This document shows, piece by piece, positions 25,404 to 40,660 of a stretch of DNA of 64,000 bases (positions are counted from its first letter, which is position 1; each line of letters opens with the position of its first letter). The position numbers were made by a program, and so were the translations under genes. The notes under the pieces were generated by a model. The model was given only the letters and a program-made list of their open reading frames with translations, searched no databases and was not told the DNA's origin. Source of the DNA: an uncultured Pseudomonadota bacterium (GTDB taxonomy: Bacteria; Pseudomonadota; Alphaproteobacteria; RF32; CAG-239); contig CASFJS010000008.1 in NCBI GenBank assembly GCA_949295085.1, forward strand, positions 38,855 through 102,854, read 5' to 3'.

Positions 25404-26453
25404 ATGCCTTTAGTCACAATGCGTCAGATTTTGGACCACGCCGCCGAAAACAACTACGGCGTTCCGGCTTTTAACATCAACGATATGGAGCAGGTGATTG
25501 CCGTTTTGCAGGCGGCGCGCAAAGTTAACGCGCCGGTTATTTTGCAAACCTCGACCGGTGCCCGCAAGTTTGCCGGTGACCCGATGATTCGCCACATGGT
25601 TGCCGCCGGTATAGAGATGTTTCCCGAGCTGCCGGTTTGCATTCATCAGGATCACGGCTCGTCGGTGGACGTTTGCCAGTCGGCGATTGTCAACGGCTAT
25701 TCGTCGGTGATGATGGACGGCTCTTTGGAGGCGGACGGCAAAACGCCGTCGTCTTTTGAATACAATGTCCGTGTCACCAAAGAGGTTGTGGCCCGCGCCC
25801 ATGCCGTCGGCGCTTCGGTTGAGGGCGAGCTTGGCGTTATCGGCTCGCTGGAAACCGGCAAAGGCGACAAAGAAGACGGCCACGGTGCCGAGGGTGTGAT
25901 TGACAAGAAAAAACTGGTGACCGACCCGGACGAGGCCGCGCGTTTTGTTGCCGAAACACATCTGGATGCTTTAGCGGTTGCCGTCGGTACGTCGCACGGC
26001 GCCTATAAGTTCACCCGCAAGCCGGACGGCGAAATTTTGTCGATTGAGACGATTGAAAAAATTCACCAAAAGCTGCCCAACACCCACATGGTTATGCACG
26101 GTTCGTCCTCTGTTCCGCAAGAGCTGCAGGATTTGATTAATGCCTATGGCGGCGCCATTCCGCAGACTTATGGTGTTCCGGTTGAAGAAATTGTCCGCGG
26201 TATCAAATCCGGCGTTCGCAAGGTCAATGTCGACACCGACTGCCGCATGGCCATCACCGGCGCCATCCGCAAGATATTTGCCGAAAACCCGAAAGAATTT
26301 GACCCGCGCAAATACTTAAAGCCGGCAATTGAAGAAATGCAAAAAGTCTGCGAGGCGCGGTATATTGCCTTTGGTGCGGCCGGTCATGCCGATAAGATTA
26401 AGCCGATTCCGATGTCGGAAATGGCCAAGCGTTACGCCGCCGGCGAAATTTAA
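25404..26453 (+). CDS. fba: class II fructose-bisphosphate aldolase
   Basis: 349 aa. Motifs seen: YGVPAFNINDMEQ, HQDHG and GTSHGAYKF. The RBS is AAGGAG with a 6-nt spacer to the ATG. Confidence 0.92.
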   Translation: MPLVTMRQILDHAAENNYGVPAFNINDMEQVIAVLQAARKVNAPVILQTSTGARKFAGDPMIRHMVAAGIEMFPELPVCIHQDHGSSVDVCQSAIVNGYSSVMMDGSLEADGKTPSSFEYNVRVTKEVVARAHAVGASVEGELGVIGSLETGKGDKEDGHGAEGVIDKKKLVTDPDEAARFVAETHLDALAVAVGTSHGAYKFTRKPDGEILSIETIEKIHQKLPNTHMVMHGSSSVPQELQDLINAYGGAIPQTYGVPVEEIVRGIKSGVRKVNVDTDCRMAITGAIRKIFAENPKEFDPRKYLKPAIEEMQKVCEARYIAFGAAGHADKIKPIPMSEMAKRYAAGEI

Positions 26454-26479
26454 TTTTGCTCTGGCCTTTGCCTCGTTTT

Positions 26480-26945
26480 AAACCGTCCCCCGCTTGGGGA
26501 GGCAATAAAACCTGTCATGCCGCCTTTGGCGGGCATTCTTCCCACCAACCCTGTCACCCCGCCTCGGGAAAAATACTTGCCCAAAGGCTGGGTGACATGG
26601 TTTTAAAGGCGGCGGGACACGTCTTGGATCATTCTGAGGAGTTCTTCTTTTTCTGTCATTCTGAGGAGCGCTTCTTTTTCTGTCATTCTGAGGAGTGTTT
26701 CTTTTTCTGTCATTCTGAGGAGTGTTTCTTTTCCTGTCATTCTGAGGGACGAATGTCCCGAAGAATCTAAGAGATGTTTCGCTTACGCTCAACATGACGG
26801 TAAAAAAGAGATCTTTCGCTTCGCTCAGGATGACAATAAAGGGCGCTCAGGATGACTGTAAAAAAAACGCGCCTCTCAGGATGACGGTAAAGGGCGCTCA
26901 GGATGACAGGTTTTATTGCTTAGCCCCAGGCGGGAGGGGGGTGAC
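26480..26945. repeat. repeat cluster A: large imperfect palindrome built of gtcattctgagg / cctcaggatgac modules
   Basis: A 17-nt perfect inverted repeat gcaataaaacctgtcat (26502-26518) pairs with atgacaggttttattgc (26903-26919). The interior holds forward-oriented gtcattctgagg units on the left and reverse-oriented ctcaggatgac units on the right. Confidence 0.85.
26629..26763 (+). repeat. 27-bp tandem array (5 units) inside cluster A
   Basis: tcattctgagga units start at 26629, 26656, 26683, 26710 and 26737, an exact 27-nt period. Confidence 0.9.
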
Positions 26946-27001
26946 GGTTTGGGTGTGCCAAAGGCTTCGGAGGAATGGCATTGGATGCGGTGTTTTAAAA
27001 C

Positions 27002-27030
27002 AAAAAAACCGGAGCCCGCAAGGGCTCCGG
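27002..27030 (-). terminator. rho-independent terminator downstream of the barrel gene
   Basis: Stem ccggagccc, loop gcaa, stem gggctccgg. On the minus strand a T7 run follows. It lies 13 nt after the stop at 27043. Confidence 0.6.
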
Positions 27031-27042
27031 AAAAAAGTTTCA

Positions 27043-28245
27043 TCAAAAAGCGAATCTTAATCCAGCTGTGGCCATGGCATCCATGCCAAAGCCGTTGCTG
27101 GATGTTCCGCTGTACGTCGGCTCGCCCTTAAAGGCTGTGCCGAACGTATAGTGGCCTCCAAACTCGCCTCCGAAAACGACCTCAAACCAGTCGAAGTGGA
27201 GGGCGAACTGGAGGTATCCGCTCGCTTTCACCCCAAGGGTGTAGCCGGCGGCGCTCATCCGGAAGCTGTTGTCTTCCGTCGCGCCGCATTCGGTTTTGAC
27301 ATATTCACCGAGTCCGGCTTTGGCGCCGAGCTCGATGGTCAAAACCGAATTGCTCCCCCATGGGAGGAATCGGTATCCGCCCTGGCCGTAAAAGGCGTTG
27401 GTGGAACTCTTATCAGATCCGAAGACCTGATAAGAACCAATGCCCCAAACGGCGCCGCCGCGAGCCGCACTTCTTTCGAAGTGAAGCAGCTCGGCTCCGG
27501 CTATCCAACCCTCGTTGCCGAGGAAAGAGTAGCCGGAGTATATCCCGCCCTGCCAGCAATTATCTCCGGAAACTCTCGTTTCCTTGAAGATATTGAAAGT
27601 CAAGGCGAGACCGGCGCTAAATCGGTCCGCGTGGTAGGCGGTGGGCAAAGCCTCCCAACCCTCCGGTACCGTAACGGTACGCTTTTGAGGGTTGTTAAAG
27701 GCGTACAGATAACGTCCGTAAACGGAAAGCGTTACCTTATCTCCCAACCGCACGCCCAGCGAGAGCTGGCCGCCGGCCTTAACACGCCACAGACTGTTGA
27801 AGTAGTCGTGGGTGTCAGTCTCGCCGTGCCACGAGTGATCGTGGTAGGCAAGCTGGCCGGCGCCGGCAAGCGCGTCGAGGCCGACATAGACTCTGTTGCC
27901 AAGCCTAAGCCCGACAACAGCCAACACATCGGAGGTGGCTCCGTAGTGCCGGCCATAGTCTATTGAAGCCATACCACCCCAACGCCAGCCAAAGGCCTTT
28001 GTCGGGGTGTAGACGCGGGTCGCCGAGAGGTCAGCCCCATAGGAACTGTAGCCTCCCCAGCTTCCGTGTCCGCCGAGAGTAATCTCAGTGTGGACACGCT
28101 CAGCCTGCGTAAAGCGCAGGTTACGGCTCTCGTAGCGGTAGCCGTAAGAGGTTGAGCGAACCTCCTGATTGTTCTGGGCGTTGACCGTCGCTGCGCTCAT
28201 ACAAGCGACGGTTAAAACTGCTAAAATATATATTTTTTTCCCCAT
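27043..28245 (-). CDS. predicted outer-membrane beta-barrel protein (family unknown)
   Basis: 400 aa with a signal peptide (ILAVLTVACMSAATVNAQ). Gly/Tyr/Ser-rich alternating strands run throughout, and the C-terminus is ...AGLRFAF. Codons are C/G-ending. Confidence 0.6.
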   Translation of the reverse strand: MGKKIYILAVLTVACMSAATVNAQNNQEVRSTSYGYRYESRNLRFTQAERVHTEITLGGHGSWGGYSSYGADLSATRVYTPTKAFGWRWGGMASIDYGRHYGATSDVLAVVGLRLGNRVYVGLDALAGAGQLAYHDHSWHGETDTHDYFNSLWRVKAGGQLSLGVRLGDKVTLSVYGRYLYAFNNPQKRTVTVPEGWEALPTAYHADRFSAGLALTFNIFKETRVSGDNCWQGGIYSGYSFLGNEGWIAGAELLHFERSAARGGAVWGIGSYQVFGSDKSSTNAFYGQGGYRFLPWGSNSVLTIELGAKAGLGEYVKTECGATEDNSFRMSAAGYTLGVKASGYLQFALHFDWFEVVFGGEFGGHYTFGTAFKGEPTYSGTSSNGFGMDAMATAGLRFAF

Positions 28246-28495
28246 ATCCTTACGGTTTTAGGGACCCCTGAGTAGAGAACTATGGCTGACGCCACAATGA
28301 GAAGAGAAAAAAACAAAAACACGAGCGGGTACTGACCTCACGCAACCTTGGCGCAAAGCGGGGTATTAGCTTTTGCCCCACCATTAAGCCTCCCTCATGC
28401 CCAAAGGCACAAGATCATGGGCGGCTCCCGTTTTTGTTCTCTCTCAAGTCCTTTACCTCGAGGCGCCCCCAAACCCAAAAGCATGGGGGCTTATT

Positions 28496-31432
28496 TTACA
28501 TAATTGTGCCGACGAAGTAGTTGACAACTCCGTTATAAGAGATTGTCCACATTCCGTTCTCGGCAGAACCGGTGGCTTTCACGGGATCTGCAAAAGGGTT
28601 GCCGTTTAAGGCAGCCTCTGCATCACCCATGATATTGGCAGCTGCTCCGTTAGGGAAGTAATAGGTAATGATGTATCCGGTGCTGGTTTTTGAAGCCTCC
28701 ACTGCGGATACGGTACCAATTCTTCCCGGCTGAGCCCATGCCATGGCGCGACCGGAGGACAGAATGTTCTGCCCGTCGGCGGCTGTAAGGTCGGTTACGG
28801 TCCAGTCCGTACCGTTCACATCGCGAGAATAGGCGACATAGGCGCCATTTTTCTCAGCAAGAATGTGAAGGTCGGTGCTGACATAATGACAGTATAAATC
28901 ATAACTGTCAGTGATCCACATCCCGACAATCTTGCCGCTGATTACCTCCGCCTCGATATAATTCACTGGAATCGAAGCGGATACAATTTCGTTACCGTGT
29001 GTAAACACGATAACGGCACCATTTTCCTGAAAGGTAATGGTGCTAACCTCTACGGCACATACCGGAGCCTCTGAGCGGTAGTCTGTTCCGTTGAACATGA
29101 TGGCGGAAACCTCTCTTGCAGAGAAGTTCACCATCACCTCACGTCCCTCGACAGTAACAGTGTTACTGCCGTTGAACTGGAATGACTGCCCCTTAACGGA
29201 AGCCGGCATGGAGGCCAGAGTGTAAACAAAACGGTTTGTAACCGTGTAGTTCACACTCTCGGCAGAGGTTGTTCCGTTTGACCAAGTGGTCGTTCGGGTT
29301 GCCTCGTTGTCGCACACGATTGAAATCGTGTTGTTGACAACCGTTGCATTTTCTTCAAATGCAATGTGCCGGAAAGAGTTCTGGGCATTAATAACCGTCA
29401 CCTCCTTCTTTGTGACGGTTACGTCTACCGATATTTCAGCGTAGTCCTGGCTGTCATTCGCGTAGAATCGAATGAAAGCTTTTTCGGCAGAGGTGAAGCT
29501 GATTGTACGGGCTTCGGCAACGCAAGGCTTAATCTCGCCTGCGTAATCCTTGTCCATGTAAACCACTTTACCCTCAACCTCAGCGGACAAACGCTGAGCA
29601 GAGATCTCTTCCCCAGCCACGGTGACGGTACCGTTGGTGAAGTCGTAGGTCTTGCCCACAACCTCATTAACATCGTCCACCACAATCTCCGGAATGGAGA
29701 TGCGGAACGAGTTAACAACGGTATAGTCTACGCTCTCCTCGTTCTGGCGGCTGCCGTCAGACATCACCTCGACGAAATCCGCGATATTGTCGCAGAAAAC
29801 GTTAACGGTGTTGTTGGACAGCTGCGCCTCGCGCTGGAAAGCGACGTGGCGGTAACTCCACTCCACATCCTCCACCGTTACAGGCTCCTCGTAAGGAACC
29901 ACGGTGATGATGAGGGTGGCCTCGGCGTAGTCCTTGCTGTCCTCGTTATAAAAACGAATGACAGCCTCAGAAGCCGAGGTAAAGGTAATGGTCTTGGCTT
30001 CGGCAACGCAAGGCTTAATTTCGCCTGCGTAATCCTTACCCCTATACATCACCTTACCCTCAACCTCAGCGGATGTACGCTGAGCCTCGAGAGAGGTTCC
30101 GGCCACGGTGACCACGCCGTTGGTGAAGTCGTAGGTCTTGCCCACAACCTCATCGTCAGCCGTTGCCTGAATCTCCGGTACGGAGATGGCAAAACGGTTG
30201 ACCACGGTATAGTCCACTTCCTCGGCGTTGCGGCGGCTGTTGTCGCTCCACACCTCGACGAAATCTGCGACATTGTCGCAGAAAACGCTAACGGTGTTGT
30301 CGCTGGACAGCTGCGCCTCGCGCAGGAAGTTCTCGTGGCGGTAGGACCACTCGGTGTAGTTATAAACGGGGTCCTCCATAACCGGAGTTCCGTCTACATT
30401 TACCGAGATCTTGGCGTAGTCATCCTCATCCTCGTTATAAAAGAGGATGGTGGCGGATGACTCGCCGAAAGTGATTGTCCGGGCAGCAACCTTGCAAGGC
30501 TCAATTTCGCCTGCATAGTCTTTATTGCCGTAGACAACGTCACCCTCGACGTTTGCCTCGATCCAGGTGCAAGAGACCTGGTGGCCGTTGATCTTTGCCA
30601 CCCCGTCAACAAACTCAACGCTCTTGCCGTTGAGTCCTTTAACCTCGTTCTCGTTCAACTCCGGGAAGTTGAACTTAAACGTGTTGTTAACGAGGTAGGG
30701 AACGGTCTCCTCCTCTTTCCGGCTCCCGTCACTCCACACCTCAGCAAACTCTGCAAAGTTGTTGCAGAGAACGCTTATGGTATCATTTTCCAGTCCGGCA
30801 TTGCGCTGGAACTGGTAGTGACGGGTTGTCCAGTCCACGTGGTCGAACACGGGAGGGGTGTATCCCTCCTCGACCACGAAAGTCTGGATGGCCTCTGCGA
30901 GTACCATCTCTCCGTAGGACAGTGTGTACACTGTCTCGGAAAGCTCGTAGAAGCTCGGGTCATCCGAGGCTTCTACGACGGCGTGCTCGCCGCTTACCTG
31001 GAGCTCTACACCGCAATGCAGTGTATACTCCTGACCTTCCGTGTCTTTGAAGGTCATGGTGAGGCCGGCCACTTTCACCTTGTTGGTGGTGTCAGCGGCG
31101 CCGGAGTAGGCAAAACTGAGCTCGCGCTCAGCTGCCTTTTCCAGCCTTTCGGCGGGGCGGAGCCCCTCGGTTCCGGACACCTTAATGGTGTCCTGTGCCT
31201 CGAGCCCGAACGGGCTGTTGGCATAACCGAGGCTGGTGCTGTCGGAGGCAAAAACCTCGACAGACACCTCGCTTGCCGGAATGTAATATTCCGGCACGGG
31301 GTTCGGGGTTTCGGGGGTCAGCGAGTGTTCTTCTTTCCAGCTCTCGCTACAGCCGGTCATAGCTACCATGGCTACCACGATAGCTATGAAAAATTTCATC
31401 TTTTTCATATTTTTTGATTTTGATTTTTTCAT
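28496..31432 (-). CDS. large lipoprotein with four tandem ~160-aa modules (family unknown)
   Basis: The first ATG gives MKKSKSKNMKKMKFFIAIVVAMVAMTGC, with a lipobox; the ORF is open to a GTG at 31444. The protein is 978-982 aa. The modules share W(S/T)YRH..F.REAQLS..NT..VFCDN.ADFVEV.SD.SR and KDYAGEIKPCVAEA.TI.F. Confidence 0.65.
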   Translation of the reverse strand: MKKSKSKNMKKMKFFIAIVVAMVAMTGCSESWKEEHSLTPETPNPVPEYYIPASEVSVEVFASDSTSLGYANSPFGLEAQDTIKVSGTEGLRPAERLEKAAERELSFAYSGAADTTNKVKVAGLTMTFKDTEGQEYTLHCGVELQVSGEHAVVEASDDPSFYELSETVYTLSYGEMVLAEAIQTFVVEEGYTPPVFDHVDWTTRHYQFQRNAGLENDTISVLCNNFAEFAEVWSDGSRKEEETVPYLVNNTFKFNFPELNENEVKGLNGKSVEFVDGVAKINGHQVSCTWIEANVEGDVVYGNKDYAGEIEPCKVAARTITFGESSATILFYNEDEDDYAKISVNVDGTPVMEDPVYNYTEWSYRHENFLREAQLSSDNTVSVFCDNVADFVEVWSDNSRRNAEEVDYTVVNRFAISVPEIQATADDEVVGKTYDFTNGVVTVAGTSLEAQRTSAEVEGKVMYRGKDYAGEIKPCVAEAKTITFTSASEAVIRFYNEDSKDYAEATLIITVVPYEEPVTVEDVEWSYRHVAFQREAQLSNNTVNVFCDNIADFVEVMSDGSRQNEESVDYTVVNSFRISIPEIVVDDVNEVVGKTYDFTNGTVTVAGEEISAQRLSAEVEGKVVYMDKDYAGEIKPCVAEARTISFTSAEKAFIRFYANDSQDYAEISVDVTVTKKEVTVINAQNSFRHIAFEENATVVNNTISIVCDNEATRTTTWSNGTTSAESVNYTVTNRFVYTLASMPASVKGQSFQFNGSNTVTVEGREVMVNFSAREVSAIMFNGTDYRSEAPVCAVEVSTITFQENGAVIVFTHGNEIVSASIPVNYIEAEVISGKIVGMWITDSYDLYCHYVSTDLHILAEKNGAYVAYSRDVNGTDWTVTDLTAADGQNILSSGRAMAWAQPGRIGTVSAVEASKTSTGYIITYYFPNGAAANIMGDAEAALNGNPFADPVKATGSAENGMWTISYNGVVNYFVGTIM
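28955..30847 (-). repeat. intragenic tandem repeats (~486-489 nt period, 4 units)
   Basis: These correspond to protein residues ~200-830. The two central units share exact runs, for example 37 nt at both 29631-29667 and 30117-30153. Confidence 0.85.
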
Positions 31433-31841
31433 GTTTGAAAGCACTCACGCTAGAGTGCGAAAATAACCCTGCCGCTTACGGTTCGATGCGAAAACGGGTC
31501 AGCACTGTAAAAATCCCTAGGACTTGTAAGAATATTATGAGAAAAATCAATATAGAAGCTTATATTTGTAACAGAAACGTTATTCTGTTTAATAGAAACT
31601 CTTTTTTTTGAAATTTTTCTAATGATAGTCTTAATGGCCTAAAGATAATATGTGTGCAACTATACTATAGCATAAAAGCGCTTTGGGTGCAAGTTTATTT
31701 TTGGAAAAAATGCGCCGGTTAGGTGTTGATTTTTAATGTTTTTTTAACTTTTTACCGATTGCTTGACAAAATTTTTGTCTTTTCTTGTCCCGACTCGGAA
31801 AAAGCGGAAGCCCCCTTAGCCTCAAGAGGAATGCCTGCCTT

Positions 31842-32285
31842 GGCTCAGGATGACGTTTTTCTTTTGTCATGTTGAGGAACGTCAGTGACGAAACATCCCA
31901 GAGATCCTTCGCTGCGCTCAGGATGACGCACCTACCTGTCATTCTGAGGAGCGTTTCTTTTTCTGTCATTCTGAGGAGCGTTTCTTTTCCTGTCATTCTG
32001 AGGGACGGAAGTCCCGAAGAATCGTAAGAGATGTTTCGCTTACGCTCAACATGACGGTGAAAGGCGCTCAGGATGACGCACCTACCTGTCATTCTGAGGA
32101 GCGTTTCTTTTTCTGTCATTCTGAGGGACGAAAGTCCCGAAGAATCTTAAGAGATGTTTCGCTTACGCTCAACATGACAGTGAAAGGCGCTCAGGATGAC
32201 GCACCTACCGGTCATTCTGAGGAGCGTTTCTTTTTCTGTCATTCTGAGGAGCGAGAGCGACGAAGAATCCCATCCGTCGTCGCCC
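31842..32285. repeat. repeat cluster B: higher-order 150/123-bp tandem repeat of the same family
   Basis: gcgctcaggatgacgcaccta starts at 31914, 32064 and 32187. The 27-bp sub-units start at 31939/31966/31993, 32089/32116 and 32212/32239. Confidence 0.88.
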
Positions 32286-32339
32286 CCGAGCGAAAACGTT
32301 GTTTTCCCATCGTAAAAAAGTTGATAAATATTATCCGGA

Positions 32340-33257
32340 TCAGACGTTCAACAAGGTCGAAAACAACTGGGTGGCTTTGCTTTGCTTGTTTCTGATAGAA
32401 GCCAGATTGGTGTAGGCATCCGACATCAGCGTTGCCGTGGCCTCATATTTTTGCGCCTGTATCTGCGCGGCATAGGCCGCCGAGATATATTCCGCCGATG
32501 ACGTGCTCGATGTTAATGAAATTGTCTCGTTCTGCGAATCCGACGACTTGGTTTCGGTCACCAGATAGTCATTGCGGTATTTGTCGCCCTGACGGATTTG
32601 CATCACATAGGGCATGCTGGCCTCCGGTGTCTCTGCCTCGGAGCCGATTTCAATGTAGTAATAGCCCTTTTTGGCCTTGTATTCGCCGGACAAAATCGCT
32701 TTCATATTGGCGTATTCTTCGGAGTTTTTGTCCGCTGTCGAATCGCCGATGGTAACCGTACGGTTGCCTTTTTTCATATAAACCTTGATTGTCATACCCT
32801 CGGCAAGGTCATCCAGCAGGCCTTTATTGGCTTTTTCGCGCTCCTCTTTCATCTTTTCGACCTCGGCGCGGGCAATCTCCAAAGGTGTTTTCGGCGTGGT
32901 GTCAATTTCTTCTTCCTCGGTTTTGATACCCATGGCCTCAAGCTCGGATTTAATTTCGTTCAAGCGGGTTTCATATTTTGACAAATCCAAAACCTTGCCG
33001 TCGTCCGTCGAATCGCCGCTGCGCAGGTTGATAAACAGCTTGCCGTTGGACTGAACCTGAACCATGTACATATCTTTATTGTCATACGGATCCAGCGTCG
33101 CGATAACCGAAATACGCGAATCGTTCAAGCGCGACCAGCCGAGATCGCGGGCATTGGCAAAACTTTCGTCGACATTGTTAACGTCGGCAACCGTTTTGTC
33201 CCAGCCGGCAATATTGCTGTTCTCCGTTGTGCTGCCGTTGACAGAGGAAACGGACAT
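32340..33257 (-). CDS. hypothetical protein (no signal peptide; acidic helical centre)
   Basis: 305-aa ORF. The N-terminal ~100 aa show a beta-rich pattern (ATLDPYDNKDMYMVQVQSNGKLFINL) faintly like pre-peptidase C-terminal (PPC) domains. No confident family. Confidence 0.5.
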   Translation of the reverse strand: MSVSSVNGSTTENSNIAGWDKTVADVNNVDESFANARDLGWSRLNDSRISVIATLDPYDNKDMYMVQVQSNGKLFINLRSGDSTDDGKVLDLSKYETRLNEIKSELEAMGIKTEEEEIDTTPKTPLEIARAEVEKMKEEREKANKGLLDDLAEGMTIKVYMKKGNRTVTIGDSTADKNSEEYANMKAILSGEYKAKKGYYYIEIGSEAETPEASMPYVMQIRQGDKYRNDYLVTETKSSDSQNETISLTSSTSSAEYISAAYAAQIQAQKYEATATLMSDAYTNLASIRNKQSKATQLFSTLLNV

Positions 33258-33332
33258 GAAACTTCTCCTTAAAAATTCACCACTCTTTTATGGTAGCATA
33301 AAATTACTAAACAAACAATTAAATTGTTGGTT

Positions 33333-34481
33333 TTATGCCGCGAATAAATCTTTGATTTTGTCAAAAAAGCTTTTGGCCTCCGGTTGGCAGGAATTTTCTT
33401 TGCTGATAGCGCGAAATTCCTCCAAAAGCTCTTTTTGGCGTTCGGATAGGTTAACCGGTGTTTCGACCCGCAGTTTGACAAACAAATCGCCGCGGCGCTC
33501 CGAGCGCACAATCGTCATCCCCTGACCTTTGACCTTAACCACTTGATCGGTCTGGGCGCCGGGGGCAATCTCAAGCTCTATCTTGTTGCCGTTGATGGCG
33601 GGAATCTCAACCTTGCCGCCAAGAGCCGCGCAACACATCGAAATCGGAATACGGGTATAAAGGCTGGCGCCGTCGCGCTCATAAAGCTTGTGTTCCTTAA
33701 CGGTAACAAAAACATACAAATCACCATTGGCGCCGCCGCGGATTCCGGCCTCGCCGGCACCCTCCAGCCGGATACGCGTGCCATCCTCAATACCTGAGGG
33801 AACGCTGACTTTGATTGTCCGCGCTTTATTGATATACCCCTTGCCTTTGCAGTCCGGACAGGCGTTTTTGACCAAACGCCCCGTTCCTTTGCAATGCGGA
33901 CAACTTTGCTCAACAACAAAAAAGCCCTGCTGCAGACGCACTTTGCCGCTGCCGTTGCAATGCGGACAAACCGGCGCCTCAGCGCCGTCTTTGGTGCCGT
34001 GACCGTGACAGGTTGCGCAGGTTTCGGTCGACGGAAAACTGATTTCCTTTTCAACACCGGAAAAAGCCTCCTCCAGCGTTACGGACAAGTTATAGCGGAT
34101 ATCCTGCCCGCGCCGGGCATAGCTTTGTTTGCGACTGCGACCGCCGCCCATAAAATCGGCAAAAACATCGGCAAAAATATCGGCAAAACCACCGGCCGCT
34201 CCGCCAAAGTCAAAATTAAAGCCGCCGAACGGATTACCGCCGCCCATACCGCCGTTTTGAAAAGCCGCATGGCCAAAACGGTCATAGGCAGCGCGCTTTT
34301 GGTCGTCTTTTAAGATCTCATAAGCCTCATTAATCTCCTTAAACCGCGCCTCGGCCTCTTTGTTGCCGGGGTTGCGGTCGGGGTGATATTGCATTGCCAA
34401 ACGGCGGAATGCTTTCTTTATCTCATCGCCGGAGGCGGTTTTGGATACCTCCAATATCTCGTAATAATCTCTTTCGGTCAT
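33333..34481 (-). CDS. dnaJ: molecular chaperone DnaJ
   Basis: 382 aa with a J domain (HPD), a G/F region and four CxxCxGxG zinc-finger repeats. Confidence 0.96.
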
Positions 34482-34518
34482 TGTTTGTTTTAAGCCTTTG
34501 TTGCGTTTCTTGCTCTTT

Positions 34519-34547
34519 ATTTAGGAATATTTGCGGCAAAATGCAAG
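34519..34547 (-). promoter_or_regulatory. candidate RpoH (sigma32)-type promoter for dnaJ
   Basis: On the minus strand: CTTG (34547-34544), 18 nt, then CCTAAAT (34525-34519). There is one mismatch to the alphaproteobacterial CTTG-N17/18-CYTATNT pattern as I recall it. It lies 37 nt upstream of the ATG. Confidence 0.4.
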
Positions 34548-34713
34548 CAAATTGCACAAGTTTTTGAAATAAAAGCATAAAGTATATGTTAACGAATTTC
34601 TGATATAATCACTTTAATGGAAATTTTGACAAAAAAGTTGTTTTTGTGTCAAAAACATGCTAGGATATAAGTATGTTTTGACAGATACCGTGTTTTGATA
34701 AGGATTTATTGCC

Positions 34714-37700
34714 ATGACTGATACATCTAACTGGCCAAGAGAAGTTATTGATATTGAACAATTAAAAACCGTTTTGGATAGTAACAGTATCAATATGGCT
34801 GACGAACTGGACATTGTTTTGCGGCAGAAAGCGCACGTTGATATGCCTTACGGAAAACGTTATCAGCATGTCAGGTTTGCCACAATTCTGGGCGCCGTTC
34901 ATGTTCCAAACAGTCTGTATGATGACGAAGAACGCCAAAAACACTTAAAGAAACTTCGCCGTTATTATGATCAAAGTGCGACAAAGGCCTATATTAAATT
35001 GGAAACGGCGGATTTTTATTGCAACTTTCTGGAGCAAATCAAAGACAGCATTGAACAAAGACACCCCGGAGTCAAACTGCCCTTGACCACTGTTGATAAG
35101 CCCAAAGAAAAAGAGCAAACTCGCGGCACCGGCGGCAAAAAACGGAGCAAACCCAACACGCAGAACGATCAAATTGTCAAAATAGACCGTTATCGGGTTA
35201 TTAATCCCTCTTGTCTGTCAAATCTGCCCGCCGAAGAATTAACCAAACTGCTGAATGAAACACTGGCTGAATATGCCAATAATATGACCGCAACCGCCGA
35301 TAAGGATAAATTAATCAAATTTATCGCCAATCTTGAGTATGCTTTTGCTTATGCACGAAATGACGGCAAAAGTTTAGAACAAAATTCCCATTTAAATCAG
35401 GCGCGGCGGCTGTATAACTACCGAGCCGGACAAAATCTTACGCCGCAAACCCAAAAGCTTTATGTCGCTTATATGGAAGCGGTTGAGGAAAAACTGAGAA
35501 AAGCGCATCCGGATTATCAGATTGTTTATGATGAAATTCCTCTGCTTTATGACAGTGTCCGAGCGGAACCCCAACCTGAGCCGGAACCCAAACCTGAGCC
35601 GGAACCCAAACCTGAGCCGGAACCCCAACCTGAGCCGGAGCCCCAACCGGAACCTGAGCCGGAACCCCAACCTGAGCCGGAGCCGGCGGATACGCAGGAA
35701 AAAATTTTGGAAGGCTATACCTCGGATGAATGGATGCAACTTTTGGCCGGCGTCAAAAATGAGGATGCTCTGCCGGTTTTTCTTGAAATGACGGCCGACT
35801 CGCTTCATCTGACAGAAGGGATGGAAATCACGGCTTTGCGTGAGGTTTTGGGCGAGCGTTTTCCGAAAAACTTTGAAAAACTGACCCCTGCGGAAAAAGA
35901 TGCCAAACGGCAAGAACTCAAAAGCAGCCTTAATCCGGCCGAGTTGGCAAAATTCAATATCCGGCTGACCGACAAAGCCCAAATTTTGGCCGAAAGCCTG
36001 CCGCCGCACCAACTGGTTGTGATGGCGCAGGATATTGACAAGCAGCTTGAAGATAAAAACCGCACCTCCGATGAGCAAGAGCAACAACTGCAGGAACTGA
36101 AAGCGCAAAAAGAAGTGCTGGTTGCCGCCATGGCCGCCAAAACCAAAGGTGTGGCTTTTGGAGACATCATCATTGACCAAACCAACGTTGCCGATGTTTA
36201 TGACGGCGCAATGGAAATGTTTGATTATCTGCAAAACTCCGGTGTGCAGCTTGAGGGCGAAGGTGAGTTTTCTTTTGCCGATCTGATGGAAAGTGCCAAA
36301 AATAAATTAAACAGAGAAATCGCCGCCTATGATGAAGCGAACGGTCTGACAAACATTAACGAAGAAGACGCGGATAAGCTGGAAAAAGCTTTTGATGATG
36401 TCTGGGCAACAGCCAAAGAAATTGATATCAACGACAAAACGCAGAACGAAGCCTGGTTTTCCAATATCGGAACGTTTTTCGACGGCCTGAGTTTTGCCGA
36501 GCCTGACGCCGATAAGAAAAAGCAAACTTTTATCGAGACCATTAAGCTCGAGGCTGCGCGCAATGCCGCCATACGATCCGTCGGAAAAAGCAAAGAAGAA
36601 TTAATCGAAGAATTAAAAATCCAATTACAAACAACGGCCGGCCAGCATATCCAAACATTGATTACGACCGATGTCATGGCAAATTTACCGGAAAACGCAA
36701 CCGATGAACAGCGTCGGCAGGCTGTTGCGGAAGCTTTGGCTCAGCCACGACATCAAATCAGCGACAAAGGCCTGGCAGCTTATCAGGCGGCCACGGTTAA
36801 CAACCATATCAGCTTTTTGAACCGTTTGGCCGGCAAGGCACACCTCAACAATCGCAGCGCGTCGGTTTTGAGCAAAATATACGGACCTTTGCAAAAAATC
36901 GATAAGGCCTGTATCGCCCGTTTTGGTCAAAATTATACCGTGGTGCGCAAATTCGGCCGGATGATGGCCGGTAATATGGGTGCTCAGGCTCTCAATCAGG
37001 TTGTGAGAATTGGCTGCAATACCGTCGGACTGGCGCTCGGCACGCCGGGGCTCGGTTCCCAGATTTATGCCGGCGTTTATGCCGCACAGGCTTTGACCCG
37101 TCTGGGGATGAGCTTTGCTCAGGAACGTCGCGACGCCAAAGCTCGGGGTGAGAAATACGGTTTCGGCAAATTCCTGTTGCAAAAATCACCGGAAATTTTG
37201 ATGACTGCCGCGGTCACAACGTCTATTTTCTTCGGTGGCGAAATTGCCAAACGCGGCATGGAAGCCGCCGTACGCTACGGCACCATGGCTGTCGGGTTTG
37301 GTATTTCATTGGTTAAAGGTATCAGAGCCCAGCGCAAAGCCGGCAACAAATGGGGCAAAGCCATCGCCAAGGCCTTTGCCAATTCGGCAGCCTCAACCGC
37401 GACGGCCGTTGCAACCGGTATGGGCATGGCCTGGGGCGTCAACAATCTGGCGGCCGAAATAACCAATAACACATCGCTTGATTTGTGGGGCGAACACGGC
37501 ACCCGCCAGCCGACCGCCGATGAATATAATCCTGACGACGCCAGTTACAGCAAAGATACTGTCGGCAGCGATAAATTGGATAATTATAAAAATATGACTC
37601 CCGAAGAACTCAACCGGTCCGGAATTATCAAGGAGGGGCTGCCTCGTGACGAAGCGGCCGGTTTGATTAACCAAACCGATGAGCAACTGGCCGACAAAGG

Positions 37701-38589
37701 CTTGGTTCGCAGTGAAACCAGCGCCAATGATCCGAACGGCGTTAAGATTGTCGACGAACCGGCCGGGGTGGCTTATGCCAAAGGCGCGGTTGAAAACGCC
37801 AAAGATATTCTGGAAATGTGGACCAAAGATGCGCCGGGATTGTTGGACGACAATATCAGCAAGCTGCAGCCGATTCTGGAAGAATGGAATGCCCGGTTTC
37901 CGGATAAAGCCATGGATGCCCACCGGTTGTTGCTGATTGCCGGCGACTGCGGTGCACAGATGGTTAATGCCGATATTGACACCAATATGCACCACGTCGA
38001 CCATAGCGATACACCGGCGGAAGTTCACGGAAATCATAAAGTTTTTGGCTCACAATGGTGCGAGGCCAACAACTTTAATCATGATATAATTAAACATATC
38101 GCCTCCGTTACCGATGCCAACGGCCATATCATCCCCGAAAAATTATCGCCGGATACTTTGTGGGCCATTGCCGAGCTTGACGCAGCGGTCAGCGCACATA
38201 ATGAAGTCGGACATATTAACGGTGCGCCGGTTCATACCGACGGGGTATTGGCACGCAACGCCTCGGCAGACGGAACAGGCGTCTTTCACCATGTTGACGA
38301 TGGTAAAGGCGAGGTCTTTACGACTTATGCCGACGGCGACGGTAAAATCACGATACCGGAAAAAGCGCATTATGAACGGATTGATGAATTCTCCAAGGTT
38401 GAACAACACAGCTATATTCCGTTCACGGTTACGTTTGACCGGATTTTCGGCGGCGCGCAAAAATTTACTCAAAGCCTGAAACGGATTATGGGCGCCAACG
38501 GTAAGTATAAGGAAAAAACAAACGCCGACGGCACCAAGGATAAGTCGGCAGGTATTAATCCGGTTAAGCTTTCCGGCGGCCGCTCTTAA
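34714..38589 (+). CDS. giant orphan protein (1291 aa) with PEPEPK/Q repeat tract and Gly/Ala-rich hydrophobic centre
   Basis: One uninterrupted ORF with backbone-like codon usage and no signal peptide. No domain recognised. Confidence 0.7.
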   Translation: MTDTSNWPREVIDIEQLKTVLDSNSINMADELDIVLRQKAHVDMPYGKRYQHVRFATILGAVHVPNSLYDDEERQKHLKKLRRYYDQSATKAYIKLETADFYCNFLEQIKDSIEQRHPGVKLPLTTVDKPKEKEQTRGTGGKKRSKPNTQNDQIVKIDRYRVINPSCLSNLPAEELTKLLNETLAEYANNMTATADKDKLIKFIANLEYAFAYARNDGKSLEQNSHLNQARRLYNYRAGQNLTPQTQKLYVAYMEAVEEKLRKAHPDYQIVYDEIPLLYDSVRAEPQPEPEPKPEPEPKPEPEPQPEPEPQPEPEPEPQPEPEPADTQEKILEGYTSDEWMQLLAGVKNEDALPVFLEMTADSLHLTEGMEITALREVLGERFPKNFEKLTPAEKDAKRQELKSSLNPAELAKFNIRLTDKAQILAESLPPHQLVVMAQDIDKQLEDKNRTSDEQEQQLQELKAQKEVLVAAMAAKTKGVAFGDIIIDQTNVADVYDGAMEMFDYLQNSGVQLEGEGEFSFADLMESAKNKLNREIAAYDEANGLTNINEEDADKLEKAFDDVWATAKEIDINDKTQNEAWFSNIGTFFDGLSFAEPDADKKKQTFIETIKLEAARNAAIRSVGKSKEELIEELKIQLQTTAGQHIQTLITTDVMANLPENATDEQRRQAVAEALAQPRHQISDKGLAAYQAATVNNHISFLNRLAGKAHLNNRSASVLSKIYGPLQKIDKACIARFGQNYTVVRKFGRMMAGNMGAQALNQVVRIGCNTVGLALGTPGLGSQIYAGVYAAQALTRLGMSFAQERRDAKARGEKYGFGKFLLQKSPEILMTAAVTTSIFFGGEIAKRGMEAAVRYGTMAVGFGISLVKGIRAQRKAGNKWGKAIAKAFANSAASTATAVATGMGMAWGVNNLAAEITNNTSLDLWGEHGTRQPTADEYNPDDASYSKDTVGSDKLDNYKNMTPEELNRSGIIKEGLPRDEAAGLINQTDEQLADKGLVRSETSANDPNGVKIVDEPAGVAYAKGAVENAKDILEMWTKDAPGLLDDNISKLQPILEEWNARFPDKAMDAHRLLLIAGDCGAQMVNADIDTNMHHVDHSDTPAEVHGNHKVFGSQWCEANNFNHDIIKHIASVTDANGHIIPEKLSPDTLWAIAELDAAVSAHNEVGHINGAPVHTDGVLARNASADGTGVFHHVDDGKGEVFTTYADGDGKITIPEKAHYERIDEFSKVEQHSYIPFTVTFDRIFGGAQKFTQSLKRIMGANGKYKEKTNADGTKDKSAGINPVKLSGGRS
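35566..35685 (+). repeat. in-frame 18-bp-type tandem repeat encoding (PEPEPK/Q)n
   Basis: cctgagccggaaccc(a/c)aa is reiterated. The translation is PQPEPEPKPEPEPKPEPEPQPEPEPQPEPEPEPQPEPEP. Confidence 0.9.
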
Positions 38590-38630
38590 AAAGAGAAGCT
38601 CCGCATTTGCGGAGCTTCTCTTTTTTTTTT
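38590..38630. terminator. bidirectional rho-independent terminator shared by the giant ORF and dnaK
   Basis: A 14-bp stem agagaagctccgca / tgcggagcttctct with a T10 run on the plus side and a T5 run on the minus side. Confidence 0.7.
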
Positions 38631-38639
38631 GGAGTTTAC

Positions 38640-40556
38640 TTATTTGACCTCTTCAAAATCGGCGTCAACAACCTTTTCGTCTTTAGGCTGTTCGGCCGAA
38701 GCACCGGTATCGGCGCCTTGCGTTGCGCCCTGAGCCTGTTGTGCCTGAGCGGCCTGCGCCTTGTACATGGCCTCGCCGAGTTTCATTGAAGCCTGCATCA
38801 GACTTTCGGTCTTTTCTTTGATAACCGCCAAATCATCGGCCTCCAGCGCTGTCTTCAAAGCGTTGATTTCTTTTTCAATCGCTTCTTTTTCGGCCGGTGA
38901 AACCTTGTCGCCGTTTTCTTTTAAGGTCTTTTCGGTGGTATGAACCAAAGATTCGGCTTGGTTCTTAGCCTCGACAACCTCTTTTTTCTTCTTATCGGCT
39001 TCGGCATTAGCCTCGGCGTCTTTGACCATCTTTTCGATATCGGCATCGGACAAACCGCCGCTGGCTTGAATACGAATAGCCTGCTCTTTGTTGGTGGCCT
39101 TATCCTTGGCCGAAACGTTAACAATGCCGTTGGCGTCGATATCAAAGGTTACTTCAATCTGCGGCATACCGCGCGGTGCCGGCGGAATACCAACCAGATC
39201 AAACTGGCCCAGAAGTTTGTTGTCGGCCGCCATTTCACGCTCGCCCTGAAAGACGCGAATCGTAACAGCCGTTTGGCCGTCTTCGGCGGTTGAGAAGACC
39301 TGCGATTTGCGGGTCGGAATGGTGGTGTTGCGGTCAATCAAACGGGTGAAGACACCACCAAGGGTTTCAATACCCAAAGACAGCGGCGTAACATCCAGCA
39401 ACAAAACATCTTTGACATCGCCCATCAAAACACCGCCCTGAATGGCTGCGCCGACGGCAACGACCTCATCCGGGTTAACACCTTTGTGCGGCTCTTTGCC
39501 AAAGATTTCTTTAACCTTTTCCTGAACTTTGGGCATACGGGTCATACCGCCGACCAAAATAACCTCGCTGATATCTGTCGGCGAAATACCGGCATCGGCC
39601 ATGGCCTTTTTGCAAGGCTCAACCGTGCGCTCAATCAAATCTTCAACCAAAGATTCAAGTTTGGCGCGAGTCAGCTTGATGTTCAAATGTTTCGGCCCTG
39701 TGGCATCCGCGGTAATAAAGGGCAAATTAACCTCGGTCTGTGTGGTAGAGGACAGCTCAATCTTGGCTTTTTCGGCCGCTTCTTTCAAACGCTGCAAAGC
39801 CAAACGGTCGTTCTTCAAATCAATGCCTGATTCTTTCTTAAATTCCTCGGACAAATAGTTGACCAGACGCTGGTCAAAGTCTTCGCCGCCCAAGAAAGTA
39901 TCGCCGTTGGTCGACTTAACCTCAAAAACGCCGTCGCCAATCTCCAAAATCGAGATATCAAACGTACCGCCGCCAAGGTCATAAACCGCAATCGTGCCGT
40001 TGGTTTTTTTATCCAAGCCGTAAGCCAAAGCAGCCGCCGTCGGCTCGTTGATGATACGCAAGACATCCAGTCCGGCAATTTTACCGGCGTCTTTGGTGGC
40101 CTGACGCTGAGAGTCGTTAAAATAGGCCGGAACGGTAATAACGGCTTTTTCAATTTTTTCGCCAAGGTAGCTTTCGGCATATTCTTTAATCTTTTGCAAG
40201 ACGATAGCCGAGATCTGCGACGGCGCATATTTCTGGCCTTTAACCTCAACCCAGGCATCGCCGTTGTCGCCCTCGATAATCTTAAACGGAACCAAAGCTT
40301 TGTCTTTGGCAACTTCCGGCGAATCATACCGACGGCCGATTAAACGTTTAATCGCAAACAACGTGTTTTCCGGGTTGGTTACCGCCTGACGTTTAGCCGG
40401 AAAACCGACCAGACGCTCTGTATCGGTAAACGCGACCATCGACGGTGTGGTGCGCGCGCCTTCGGAGTTCTCAAGAACTTTGGCCTCCCCGCCTTCCATA
40501 ACGGCAAAACAGGAGTTGGTCGTACCCAAGTCAATACCAATAACTTTATTGCTCAT
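38640..40556 (-). CDS. dnaK: molecular chaperone DnaK (Hsp70)
   Basis: 638 aa with GIDLGTTNS and DLGGGTFD motifs and a C-terminal EEVK-type tail. Confidence 0.98.
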
Positions 40557-40604
40557 AATCTTTTCCTTCTTTCCAGATTTTGATTTTTATTTGTCTAGAA
40601 GCTT

Positions 40605-40633: not shown

Positions 40634-40660
40634 GGCGGATATTATTTTTTTATAAGAAAA

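What the first reader, a model, noticed from the sequence alone, without database searches (positions are those of the whole stretch)
26456..32300. Repeat-bracketed ~5 kb island of foreign composition carrying a beta-barrel plus giant-lipoprotein gene pair
Two minus-strand genes (27043-28245 and 28496-31432) lie between fba and the dnaJ-side genes. They sit between two clusters of one repeat family (26480-26945 and 31842-32285).

A ~67-nt segment (tgtcattctgagggacg.a.gtcccgaagaatc.taagagatgtttcgcttacgctcaacatgac.gt) occurs at about 26735-26801, 31991-32058 and 32114-32181. All three are in the same orientation, so direct repeats bracket the island.

The interior differs from the backbone in several ways:
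- Hand-counted 60-nt lines give 50-57% GC inside, versus 37-50% in four backbone lines. This is a small sample, not a proper scan.
- Codons are strongly C/G-ending, for example gtc gag gtg tgg agc gac aac agc cgc cgc aac gcc gag.
- Neither gene has a well-spaced Shine-Dalgarno, whereas fba next door has AAGGAG-6-ATG.
- Long antisense ORFs of 271-364 aa appear, a typical GC3 symptom.

There is no integrase or transposase, and I cannot assign either protein to a family.

The best reading is a recently acquired cell-surface module of unknown function. The alternative is an assembly chimera seeded by the repeats.
Basis: partly seen in the sequence, partly recalled or inferred. Interest (0 to 1): 0.78.

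Follow-up and report, generated by a model that had tools for sequence, protein, structure and literature searches.

The report
Relocated hypervariable surface lipoprotein–barrel cassette
The "island" is a fast-evolving cell-surface gene pair (a modular lipoprotein and an outer-membrane barrel) that is old in this group of uncultured gut Alphaproteobacteria and has moved to a new chromosomal site in this species; the two genes are separated by a conserved folded RNA that no database lists.

Summary
Two minus-strand genes, a 400-aa barrel and a ~970-aa lipoprotein, sit between two clusters of one repeat family. Their oligonucleotide signature is the clearest outlier in the 64 kb.

The reading "recently acquired foreign island" does not hold. 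The same pair lies at one conserved site (ppdk–omp203 | pair | h149–pepM24–prmA) in every relative examined. It is equally atypical in composition there.

In the window's species it lies between h305/dnaJ and fba. Three further independent assemblies show the same h305–lipoprotein junction, so it is not a chimera. The old site is empty in contigs from three samples that also carry window-type contigs. That points to relocation, next to an inverted 23.5-kb block.

The locus is hypervariable within species. Its dS is 2–16 times that of the flanks, one domain is replaced outright, and the lipoprotein carries two to at least five 162-aa modules.

Neither protein matches Pfam, NCBIfam, PDB sequences or a specific fold.

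Two extras emerged. The 250-nt intercistronic spacer holds a ~140-nt structured RNA with strong covariation and no Rfam match. The flanking repeats belong to a 25–27-nt hairpin repeat found verbatim across many bacterial phyla.

The parts
26480..26945 (.). Downstream repeat cluster R1. It holds four tandem 27-nt truncated units, one 67-nt inverted doublet and four inverted units, plus a second repeat type (26483-26518, inverted at 26903-26938).
27009..27030 (-). Strong intrinsic terminator of the operon: 9-bp stem with 8 GC pairs, followed by a T-run.
27043..28245 (-). Outer-membrane beta-barrel protein of 400 aa. It has a signal peptide, about 16 strands and a C-terminal Phe, and belongs to an orphan family.
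28307..28442 (-). Core of the conserved intercistronic structured RNA: a long P1 stem enclosing three hairpins, with a conserved GCUA loop.
   Evidence: no Rfam hit
28465..28490 (-). Conserved GCCCC...GGGGC hairpin immediately after the lipoprotein stop codon.
28496..31432 (-). Surface lipoprotein gene. The likely start is the ATG at 31408 (MKKMKFF...), and the lipobox is ...VAMTG-C.
28499..28957 (-). Conserved C-terminal domain of the lipoprotein (aa ~826-978). It holds the densest cluster of family-invariant residues.
28958..30865 (-). Four tandem 162-aa (486-nt) beta modules (aa ~190-825), each with two conserved Cys. Homologue lengths correspond to two to at least five modules.
30866..31348 (-). 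Hypervariable N-terminal domain of the lipoprotein. The allele is replaced within the species (45-46% identity to L003 and L033, 92% to L030).
31433..31841 (-). AT-rich upstream region that travelled with the cassette; 31509-31781 is ~72% identical to the upstream region at the ancestral site. Tentative promoter: -35 at 31692-31687, -10 at 31669-31664.
   Evidence: the promoter is read from the sequence and is inferred
31842..32285 (.). Upstream repeat cluster R2, including 2.3 copies of a 123-nt super-repeat built from the same units.

Best explanation
**What it is.** The region is one transcription unit. It runs from an upstream AT-rich region through the lipoprotein gene, a 250-nt structured spacer and the barrel gene to a strong terminator. 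It encodes a two-part cell-surface module of an uncultured gut alphaproteobacterial clade.

**How it probably works (inferred).**
- The lipoprotein is lipid-anchored.
- It carries a hypervariable N-terminal domain, a variable number of 162-aa beta modules and a conserved C-terminal domain.
- The barrel is its outer-membrane partner, acting as anchor or translocon for the conserved C-terminal domain. This lets the variable parts be displayed on the cell surface.
- The folded intercistronic RNA uncouples expression of the two genes, through processing, stability or regulated read-through or translation of the barrel.

**Evolution (shown).**
- The module is ancestral to the clade.
- It is kept highly polymorphic by homologous exchange of whole alleles and single domains. 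This is the pattern expected for a target of phages or host immunity.

**What changed in this species.**
- The cassette left its ancestral omp203|h149 site.
- It now sits at the junction of a 23.5-kb inversion, between h305/dnaJ and fba.
- Clusters of a dispersed hairpin repeat bracket the cassette at both the old and the new site. They are the likely recombination substrates (inferred).
For: **Operon anatomy.** The genes are co-oriented, a terminator follows only the barrel, and the upstream region is conserved with the ancestral locus.

**Surface proteins.**
- The lipobox Cys is conserved in 15 of 17 aligned homologues.
- The barrel model has pLDDT 78. Its only fold matches are FadL, OmpG, CymA and porins at probability 1.0.
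- The lipoprotein model has pLDDT 83 and is an all-beta string of domains.

**Ancestral status.**
- The pair lies at ppdk-omp203|pair|h149-pepM24-prmA in L001, L004-L013, L036-L050 and L131-L134.
- The pair is atypical in tetranucleotide signature in 9 of 9 related loci (8 at the ancestral site plus window-type L003): r = 0.44-0.66 against 0.67-0.93 for other windows.
- GC3 of the orthologues resembles that of their neighbours.

**Relocation.**
- The h305|pair junction is seen in ERZ16268236, ERZ16268270, ERZ16268267 and ERZ16268163.
- In L014 and L015, h305 is followed instead by the tRNA-Arg/w365 block, which is inverted in the window.
- The empty site h149|terminator|omp203 occurs in ERZ16268236, ERR10610549 and ERR10610621. 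These three samples also hold window-type contigs.

**Hypervariability.**
- Strains with an identical h149 and 98-100% identical pepM24 have barrels 76-90% and lipoproteins 68-87% identical (one pair of contigs carries identical alleles), with lipoprotein lengths of 632-967 aa.
- Window versus L003: flank dS is 0.02-0.08; barrel dS is 0.33; the rest of the lipoprotein 0.17; the N-domain has dN 0.54 and dS 1.5.
- Domain phylogenies disagree with each other, which indicates mosaicism.

**RNA.**
- 97.4% of cells pair and 20 of 40 pairs show double compensatory changes.
- 0 of 500 shuffles reach this, and slid controls give 42-56%.
- The model finds exactly one copy per locus, in the spacer, including divergent species.

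**Repeats.** They lie at both flanks of the ancestral cassette and after h305 in genomes where that site is empty.
Against: **Function is inferred, not shown.**
- No physical or functional link between the lipoprotein and the barrel has been demonstrated.
- Phylogenies of the barrel and of the lipoprotein C-domain are not congruent. That argues against tight co-evolution.
- Fold searches gave no specific match: TM is about 0.25 for the barrel and at most 0.1 for the lipoprotein.

**Relocation has gaps.**
- The empty ancestral site is tied to the window's species only by co-occurrence in three samples. A second copy elsewhere in the genome is not strictly excluded.
- The role of the repeats in the move is circumstantial.
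- The repeats are absent from the more distant species that still carry the pair.

**The role of the RNA is unknown.** Its U-rich 3' strand is not conserved in group C.
Confidence: 0.6

Rival explanations
1. Recently acquired foreign island. The 5-kb segment came by horizontal transfer from outside the clade and inserted between fba and h305.
For: - The tetranucleotide signature and codon usage are atypical.
- Repeats lie at both ends.
- The position is not shared with relatives.
Against: - Orthologues are present in every related species examined, at one conserved site, down to 43% barrel identity.
- The same compositional anomaly is seen there.
- Recoding the pair with host codon usage removes only part of the anomaly (r 0.57 to 0.745). 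Part of it therefore reflects protein composition.
- The nearest homologues all come from the same clade.
- There is no integrase and no adjacent tRNA.
Confidence: 0.04
2. Assembly chimera seeded by the repeats.
For: - Repeat clusters of 400-470 nt lie at both junctions.
- Related contigs often break inside or near this locus.
Against: - The same h305-repeat-lipoprotein junction appears in four independent assemblies from different samples.
- The whole fba-pair-h305-dnaJ arrangement is collinear at 96-99% identity in L003.
Confidence: 0.01
3. Extra paralogous copy. The species keeps a pair at the ancestral site, and the window copy is a duplicate or an imported second allele.
For: - The window alleles are only 64-73% identical to those of the nearest other species.
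- The assignment of the empty-site contigs to this species rests on sample co-occurrence only.
Against: - Empty h149|omp203 contigs occur in three of three checkable samples that hold window-type contigs.
- Those contigs are from a species distinct from L001, L005 and L006 (82-87% nucleotide identity).
- No second window-like allele appeared among 35-39 homologue clusters.
Confidence: 0.15
4. Nutrient-uptake pair. The barrel is a substrate channel. The lipoprotein is an extracellular binding or capture lid, as in SusCD or BtuG-BtuB. The spacer RNA is a ligand-sensing riboswitch for the barrel.
For: - The top fold hits are substrate channels: FadL, TodX, CymA and OmpG.
- The RNA has conserved junction and loop nucleotides with freely covarying stems, as aptamers do.
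- The RNA sits directly upstream of the barrel start.
Against: - No TonB-dependent, SusD or FadL family signature is present.
- TM-scores are low.
- Extreme allelic diversity and module copy-number variation fit an antigen or receptor better than a nutrient binder.
- No expression platform was identified.
- The motif was not found upstream of any other gene.
Confidence: 0.2

Closest known systems
Slam (type 11 secretion) with TbpB/fHbp-type surface lipoproteins of Neisseria and relatives
   Same: - An outer-membrane barrel gene is adjacent to the gene of a large, antigenically variable lipoprotein.
- The lipoprotein's conserved C-terminal beta domain could be the recognition element.
- Allelic diversity is strong.
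   Different: - The barrel has no DUF560 or TPR signature.
- TbpB, fHbp and HpuA do not appear among the top 50 fold matches listed.
- The gene order and the 162-aa tandem modules are unlike those systems.
- The analogy comes from my own knowledge and is not a tested homology.
Surface lipoprotein-barrel complexes such as SusCD and BtuG-BtuB
   Same: A co-encoded outer-membrane barrel plus an exposed lipoprotein.
   Different: - There is no TonB-dependent receptor plug or barrel domain, and no SusD-like fold or family.
- At 400 aa the barrel is far smaller than a 22-stranded TBDT.
Recombining hypervariable surface-antigen loci (for example porB/tbpB/opa of Neisseria, O-antigen and capsule loci)
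   Same: - dS is several-fold above that of conserved flanks.
- Alleles are mosaics of domains.
- Length varies through repeat copy number.
- Composition has been atypical for a long time across species.
   Different: - A different protein family.
- No silent donor cassettes were seen.
- Here the whole locus has also changed chromosomal position.
REP/REPIN/BIME intergenic hairpin repeats
   Same: - A short imperfect hairpin with a fixed 5' tetranucleotide (TGTC).
- Intergenic location, inverted doublets and tandem arrays.
- Clusters coincide with rearrangement junctions.
   Different: - REP sequences are normally species-specific. This 25-mer is verbatim in many phyla.
- No RAYT or any recurrent neighbouring gene was found.
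Intercistronic mRNA structures (puf operon hairpins of Rhodobacter, RNase III processing stems) and riboswitches
   Same: - A conserved structure between two cistrons whose products are probably needed in different amounts.
- A long outer helix encloses a multi-hairpin domain.
   Different: - No match in Rfam 15.
- It is much more elaborate than a stabilising hairpin.
- No ligand or processing evidence is available.

Membership tests
Genomic island (integrative element) | Integrase or recombinase gene, insertion at a tRNA/tmRNA gene, direct repeats that are duplicated target sequence | tested here: not met
   - No integrase or transposase among the neighbours.
- The nearest tRNAs are at 2950 and 13460.
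- The flanking repeats are copies of a dispersed family, not a duplicated att site.
Genomic island (integrative element) | Absent from close relatives, with composition foreign to the lineage | tested here: not met
   The pair is present in every relative examined. The same atypical signature is seen in each.
Bacterial lipoprotein (SPII substrate) | N-terminal signal peptide ending in a lipobox with an invariant Cys | tested here: met
   The window has ...AIVVAMVAMTG-C. 15 of 17 aligned homologues have [TSA][GSA]-C after a hydrophobic stretch; the other two start without an N-terminal signal. No dedicated predictor was run.
Outer-membrane beta-barrel protein | Signal peptide, even number of amphipathic beta strands, C-terminal aromatic residue, barrel fold | tested here: met
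   - Signal peptide and terminal Phe are conserved.
- There are 16 main strands at pLDDT 78.
- Foldseek gives probability 1.0 to FadL, OmpG, CymA and porins, but TM only 0.2-0.26.
Slam / DUF560 (T11SS) | DUF560 14-stranded barrel with N-terminal TPR | tested here: not met
   No Pfam or NCBIfam hit at E <= 0.01.
SusC/SusD-like or TonB-dependent systems | TonB_dep_Rec/Plug domains and a SusD-like lipoprotein | tested here: not met
   No family hits. The barrel is only 400 aa.
Classical porin and OMP_b-brl families | Score above the Pfam gathering threshold | tested here: not met
   Only sub-threshold hits: Porin_1 at E = 0.03 and OMP_b-brl_2 at E = 0.18 on the N-half. No profile similarity to the neighbouring omp203.
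REP/REPIN | Short palindromic unit, intergenic, occurring as inverted doublets | tested here: met
REP/REPIN | Cognate RAYT (Y1 transposase) in the genome | not testable with these tools
   Only 64 kb of the genome is available. No recurrent gene lies next to 120 copies in other genomes.
Any Rfam 15 family (for the spacer RNA) | Covariance-model match | tested here: not met
   Nothing real at E <= 10, either on the 6.2-kb region or on the 281-nt spacer alone.
Riboswitch | Ligand-dependent alternative structure controlling a downstream gene | not testable with these tools
   The structure and its covariation are shown. No ligand, expression platform or probing data exist.

The most novel reading that the evidence does not exclude
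The locus encodes a previously unrecognised surface-lipoprotein display system. In it an orphan ~16-stranded barrel exports or anchors a modular lipoprotein. The output of the system is set by a new class of structured intercistronic RNA that senses a ligand or a protein. The cassette is moved and exchanged through a cross-phylum 27-nt hairpin repeat whose means of spread is unknown.
Probability: 0.12. Interest if true: 0.8.

Novelty: new variant of a known kind. Interest (0 to 1): 0.52.

Why it matters
**For genome scanning.** The case shows that atypical composition plus flanking repeats does not imply recent acquisition. A native, long-polymorphic surface locus can look foreign in every genome that carries it.

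**For biology.**
- It identifies what is probably a major variable surface structure of an uncultured clade of human and animal gut Alphaproteobacteria. Such a structure is a candidate phage receptor or immune target, and a useful strain marker.
- It yields a well-supported new structured RNA to test.
- It also flags a short hairpin repeat that is conserved letter for letter across phyla. I could not find that literal sequence in the searchable literature.

Tried and rejected
**Protein family and fold searches that gave nothing specific.**
- Pfam and NCBIfam on both proteins, on the barrel halves (Pfam only) and on the lipoprotein homologues (Pfam only): nothing.
- PDB sequence profiles: nothing.
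- Foldseek against PDB and viral libraries: only generic beta-barrel or beta-repeat similarity, TM at most 0.26.
- Exhaustive profile search of the lipoprotein against 1.84 billion representatives: only 67 hits. Ten of the weaker hits carry no Pfam domain.

**Protein hypotheses left unresolved.**
- Barrel as an internal duplication of an 8-stranded unit: hhalign probability is only 25%, so this is inconclusive.
- Barrel related to the neighbouring omp203: rejected.

**Composition hypothesis rejected.** High-expression codon bias as the whole cause of the composition does not hold. The log-likelihood against fba/tkt/dnaK usage is no higher than for background genes.

**Synteny.** The fba-side search returned only more distant species. 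None had the pair or the repeats downstream.

**RNA searches.**
- Rfam gave only spurious miRNA, snoRNA or lncRNA hits.
- A metagenome scan with a 16-base pattern taken from the RNA returned 120 chance hits. The covariance model scored none of the 100 it was run on.
- mafft-qinsi was unavailable.

**Repeat follow-up.**
- Literature searches for the repeat by its literal sequence returned only primer hits or nothing.
- No recurrent neighbouring gene lies next to the cross-phylum repeat.

Full report
**1. What is in the sequence**

The window has 48.4% GC. It carries two co-oriented minus-strand ORFs: 27043-28245 (400 aa) and 28496-31432/31444 (978/982 aa). They lie between fba (25404-26453, +; class II aldolase, preceded by tkt) and a 305-aa unknown protein (h305, 32340-33257, -), which is followed by dnaJ.

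Both intergenic flanks are filled with one repeat family.
- The core GTCATYCTGAG occurs 19 times in 64 kb.
- Every copy lies in 26655-26907 or 31844-32248. None is expected by chance.
- Each 67-nt segment consists of two inverted copies of a basic unit: TGTC + 5-bp stem + GA/AG internal loop + a small, variable GNRA-type hairpin.
- Tandem 27-nt truncated units and a 123-nt super-repeat make up the rest.

No integrase or transposase lies within about 12 kb. The neighbours are housekeeping genes: der/engA, bamB, a GGDEF protein, a TrmA-like protein, tkt, fba, dnaJ, dnaK. The nearest tRNAs are at 2950 and 13460.

**2. Composition**

GC and GC3 do not single out the pair.
- GC3 is 0.66 and 0.65, against 0.643 for fba, 0.644 for h305, 0.612 for tkt and 0.653 for the last gene of the window.
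- The barrel's 57% GC owes much to a Gly/Ala-rich second codon position (GC2 0.50).

Other measures do single it out.
- Codon usage is distinct: KL is 0.18 and 0.21, the largest in the window for the lipoprotein and among the highest for the barrel.
- The strand-symmetric tetranucleotide signature is a sharp outlier. r = 0.54-0.59, against 0.88-0.96 for every 4.4-kb window that does not overlap the pair.

The decisive control, however, goes against a foreign origin.
- In nine related loci (eight with the pair at its ancestral position, plus window-type L003) the pair is just as deviant. r = 0.44-0.66, against 0.67-0.93 for other windows of the same loci.
- Its GC3 there matches its neighbours.
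- Recoding the two ORFs with the window's average codon usage raises r from 0.57 to 0.745. Other genes recoded the same way reach 0.77-0.86. Part of the anomaly is therefore amino-acid composition and part is codon or context usage.

The missing Shine-Dalgarno is real but uninformative: 30 of 52 crude ORF starts lack one.

**3. Who has it, and where**

The organism belongs to uncultured gut Alphaproteobacteria. Records are labelled Alphaproteobacteria, Rhodospirillales or Azospirillum MAGs from human and animal guts.

Both proteins have only small families.
- Word-indexed searches found 39 and 35 clusters at 90% identity.
- An exhaustive profile search of the lipoprotein against 1.84 billion representatives found 67 proteins.
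- The two genes co-occur on the same contigs.

In all other species and strains examined, the order is ppdk - omp203 (an 8-stranded PF13505 OMP) - [repeats] - lipoprotein - barrel - [repeats] - h149 - pepM24 - prmA. These are L001, L004-L013, L036-L050 and L131-L134. Barrel identity to the window falls as low as 43%. That is the ancestral site.

Only the window and its conspecifics have the pair between h305 and fba. L003 is 96-99% identical in the flanks, and L030-L033 also show the junction. The junction is seen in four different samples besides the window, which excludes a misassembly.

In the relatives E04__bin174 and BRZ_PK__bin103, h305 is followed by repeats (plus a small HTH gene in the former). 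Then comes the block that starts at window 2948 with tRNA-Arg, in the opposite orientation. The 23.5-kb block from tRNA-Arg to fba is therefore inverted in the window's species, and the cassette sits at the h305-proximal junction.

The homology that moved with the cassette runs from the terminator (26994) to the upstream region (31781). It stops at the repeat clusters.

Finally, I found an empty ancestral site: h149 and omp203 convergent on one bidirectional terminator, 56 nt apart.
- It occurs in six contigs.
- Three of them come from ERZ16268236, ERR10610549 and ERR10610621. These samples also yielded window-type h305 contigs.
- The contigs are 82-87% identical to other species.

I conclude that the cassette was relocated rather than duplicated. 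The link to the species rests on sample co-occurrence only.

The repeats also flank the cassette at the ancestral site in the nearer species, and they sit after h305 where that site is empty. They are absent from the loci of more distant species that still have the pair. They are therefore younger than the pair. They are plausible, but unproven, recombination substrates.

**4. Hypervariability**

Among strains that share an identical h149 and 98-100% identical pepM24:
- barrels are 76-90% identical;
- lipoproteins are 68-87% identical (one pair of contigs, L044 and L046, carries identical alleles);
- lipoprotein lengths are 632-967 aa.

Window versus L003, which have the same species and the same site:

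| Region | dN | dS | dN/dS |
|---|---|---|---|
| Flanking genes | 0.000-0.009 | 0.02-0.08 | ≤0.11 |
| Barrel | 0.054 | 0.33 | 0.16 |
| Lipoprotein, rest | 0.037 | 0.17 | 0.22 |
| Lipoprotein, N-terminal 190 codons | 0.54 | 1.5 | 0.35 |

The N-terminal values amount to an outright allele replacement.

The N-domain of the window is 92% identical to L030 but 45-46% identical to L003 and L033. The C-domain is closest to E04/L008-type alleles, whereas the barrel is closest to L001-type alleles.

High dS and domain mosaicism indicate old alleles shuffled by homologous recombination. They do not indicate a simple burst of point mutation.

Homologue lengths of ~645, ~800, ~970 and ~1100 aa correspond to 2, 3, 4 and 5 copies of a 162-aa module, and one homologue of 1485 aa is longer still. 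The window has four modules. R2 and R3 are 69% identical, and the others are 30-46% identical.

**5. The proteins**

*Lipoprotein.*
- It has a signal peptide and a conserved lipobox Cys. The likely start is the ATG at 31408.
- The AF2 model has pLDDT 83 and pTM 0.34. It is an all-beta string of domains: an N-domain, four modules each with two conserved Cys, and a ~150-aa C-domain that holds the densest cluster of family-invariant residues.

*Barrel.*
- It has a signal peptide, 16 main strands and two long hairpins at equivalent positions in each half.
- Both halves end in an aromatic motif (..TFNIF and ..LRFAF).
- An invariant SGDNCW linker joins the halves.
- Evidence for an internal duplication is weak.
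- Foldseek recognises only outer-membrane barrels, at low TM.

*Family membership.* No Pfam, NCBIfam or PDB sequence relative exists for either protein. Membership in Slam/DUF560, TonB-dependent/SusCD, FadL or the porin families was tested and not met.

The functional model is an inference from gene linkage, conservation pattern and analogy. In that model the barrel is the anchor or translocon for the conserved C-domain, and the variable N-domain and modules are displayed on the surface.

**6. The intercistronic RNA**

The 250-nt spacer (28246-28495) is more conserved than the ORFs.
- It begins with a GCCCC/GGGGC hairpin.
- It then forms a ~140-nt domain (28307-28442, minus strand). A long P1 helix encloses hairpins P2, P3 (with loop GCUA) and P4, with conserved junction nucleotides.

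A covariance model built from 11 sequences (R1) behaves as follows.
- It scores 106-165 bits on the sense strand and about 22 bits on the antisense strand.
- It finds exactly one copy per locus.
- It ranks the spacer top in three of the five divergent loci it was not built from (20-24.5 bits). L036 scores 13 bits and L013 gives no spacer hit. There P1, P3 and P4 are kept through completely different sequences.

Covariation counts are strong, with the caveat that the alignment was fitted to the model and holds only 10 sequences.

| Measure | Value |
|---|---|
| Cells paired | 97.4% |
| Pairs with double compensatory changes | 20 of 40 |
| Shuffles reaching this | 0 of 500 |
| Paired cells in slid controls | 42-56% |

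Rfam 15 has no match. The model found no copy elsewhere in the window, in the other loci searched, or in 100 of the 120 pattern-selected metagenome contigs.

The U-rich 3' strand of P1 makes the element terminator-like in the window's group but not in group C. Termination therefore cannot be the conserved function. Processing or stability control, or regulated barrel expression, is the best guess.

**7. The repeat family is not local**

The hosts include Acidobacteriota, Chloroflexota, Bacteroidota, Bacillota, Planctomycetota, Verrucomicrobiota, Gemmatimonadota, Nitrospirota, Omnitrophota, Patescibacteria and several proteobacterial classes.
- My own estimate is that fewer than one match is expected by chance in 596 Gb.
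- The flanks are not conserved.
- Inverted doublets and arrays of truncated units recur, as in the window.
- No gene family recurs next to it.
- The literal sequence is absent from the paper library.

It behaves like a REP/REPIN element, but with a cross-phylum identity that REPs do not normally show.

**8. Verdict**

The interpretation needs correcting. This is a native, ancient, hypervariable surface cassette that has been relocated in one species. It is neither a recent foreign acquisition nor an artefact.

Novelty lies in three things: two orphan protein families, a well-supported new structured RNA, and the puzzling repeat.

Function remains inferred.

Noticed in passing
window 28246-28495 (-), core 28307-28442: A conserved structured RNA lies between the lipoprotein and barrel genes. 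20 of 40 base pairs covary, there is no Rfam match, and there is one copy per locus in all species that carry the pair.
   Followed up: yes
window 26655-26907 and 31844-32248; L137-L256: The repeat unit T-GTCATCCTGAGCG(A/C)AGCGAAGGATC-T is found verbatim in genomes of more than 10 phyla. It has no conserved flanks and no linked gene, and it often occurs as inverted doublets or after tandem truncated units. The literal sequence was not found in the paper library.
   Followed up: partly
window 34714-38589 (+): A 1291-aa protein with a Pro-rich stretch is wedged between dnaJ and dnaK on the opposite strand. It has no real Pfam domain. It is highly variable among relatives (24-62% identity) and absent from E04__bin174, where dnaK directly precedes dnaJ.
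   Followed up: no
window 32342-34581 and 38596-40655 versus L014: The dnaK-dnaJ-h305 segment is 93-96% identical in nucleotides to E04__bin174, while the adjoining regions are only 76-81% identical. This suggests recent inter-species recombination right next to the cassette's new site.
   Followed up: partly
window 2948-26453; tRNA-Arg at 2950-3026 (-): A 23.5-kb block from tRNA-Arg to fba is inverted relative to E04__bin174 and BRZ_PK__bin103. One breakpoint coincides with the tRNA gene and the other with the cassette.
   Followed up: partly
window 25404-26453 (fba); L051-L087: Fba is 87-96% identical in most of these loci (83% in one); where tkt lies beside it, tkt is only 66-78% identical. 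Fba is either unusually constrained or has been exchanged between species.
   Followed up: no
window 26483-26625 and 26903-26938; L257 1-200: A second repeat type (..CCCCCGC..GGCAATAAAACCTGTC..) forms the outer inverted arms of cluster R1. It recurs upstream of h149 at the empty ancestral site, where all six contigs end within 155-401 nt.
   Followed up: no
L047-L050, L039, L040: Contigs of related strains often terminate inside the lipoprotein gene. This is consistent with assembly breaks caused by the 486-nt internal repeats or by strain mixtures. MAG gene catalogues probably under-represent this family.
   Followed up: no
window 27043-28245 (-): The two halves of the barrel have matching strand patterns. 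Each ends in an aromatic beta-signal-like motif, and an invariant SGDNCW linker joins them. The barrel may be a tandem duplication of an 8-stranded unit.
   Followed up: partly
L014 10916-12522: In E04__bin174 the site after h305 holds a 109-aa HTH gene bracketed by the same repeat clusters, next to tRNA-Arg. This is a second small repeat-bracketed insert at the same hotspot.
   Followed up: no
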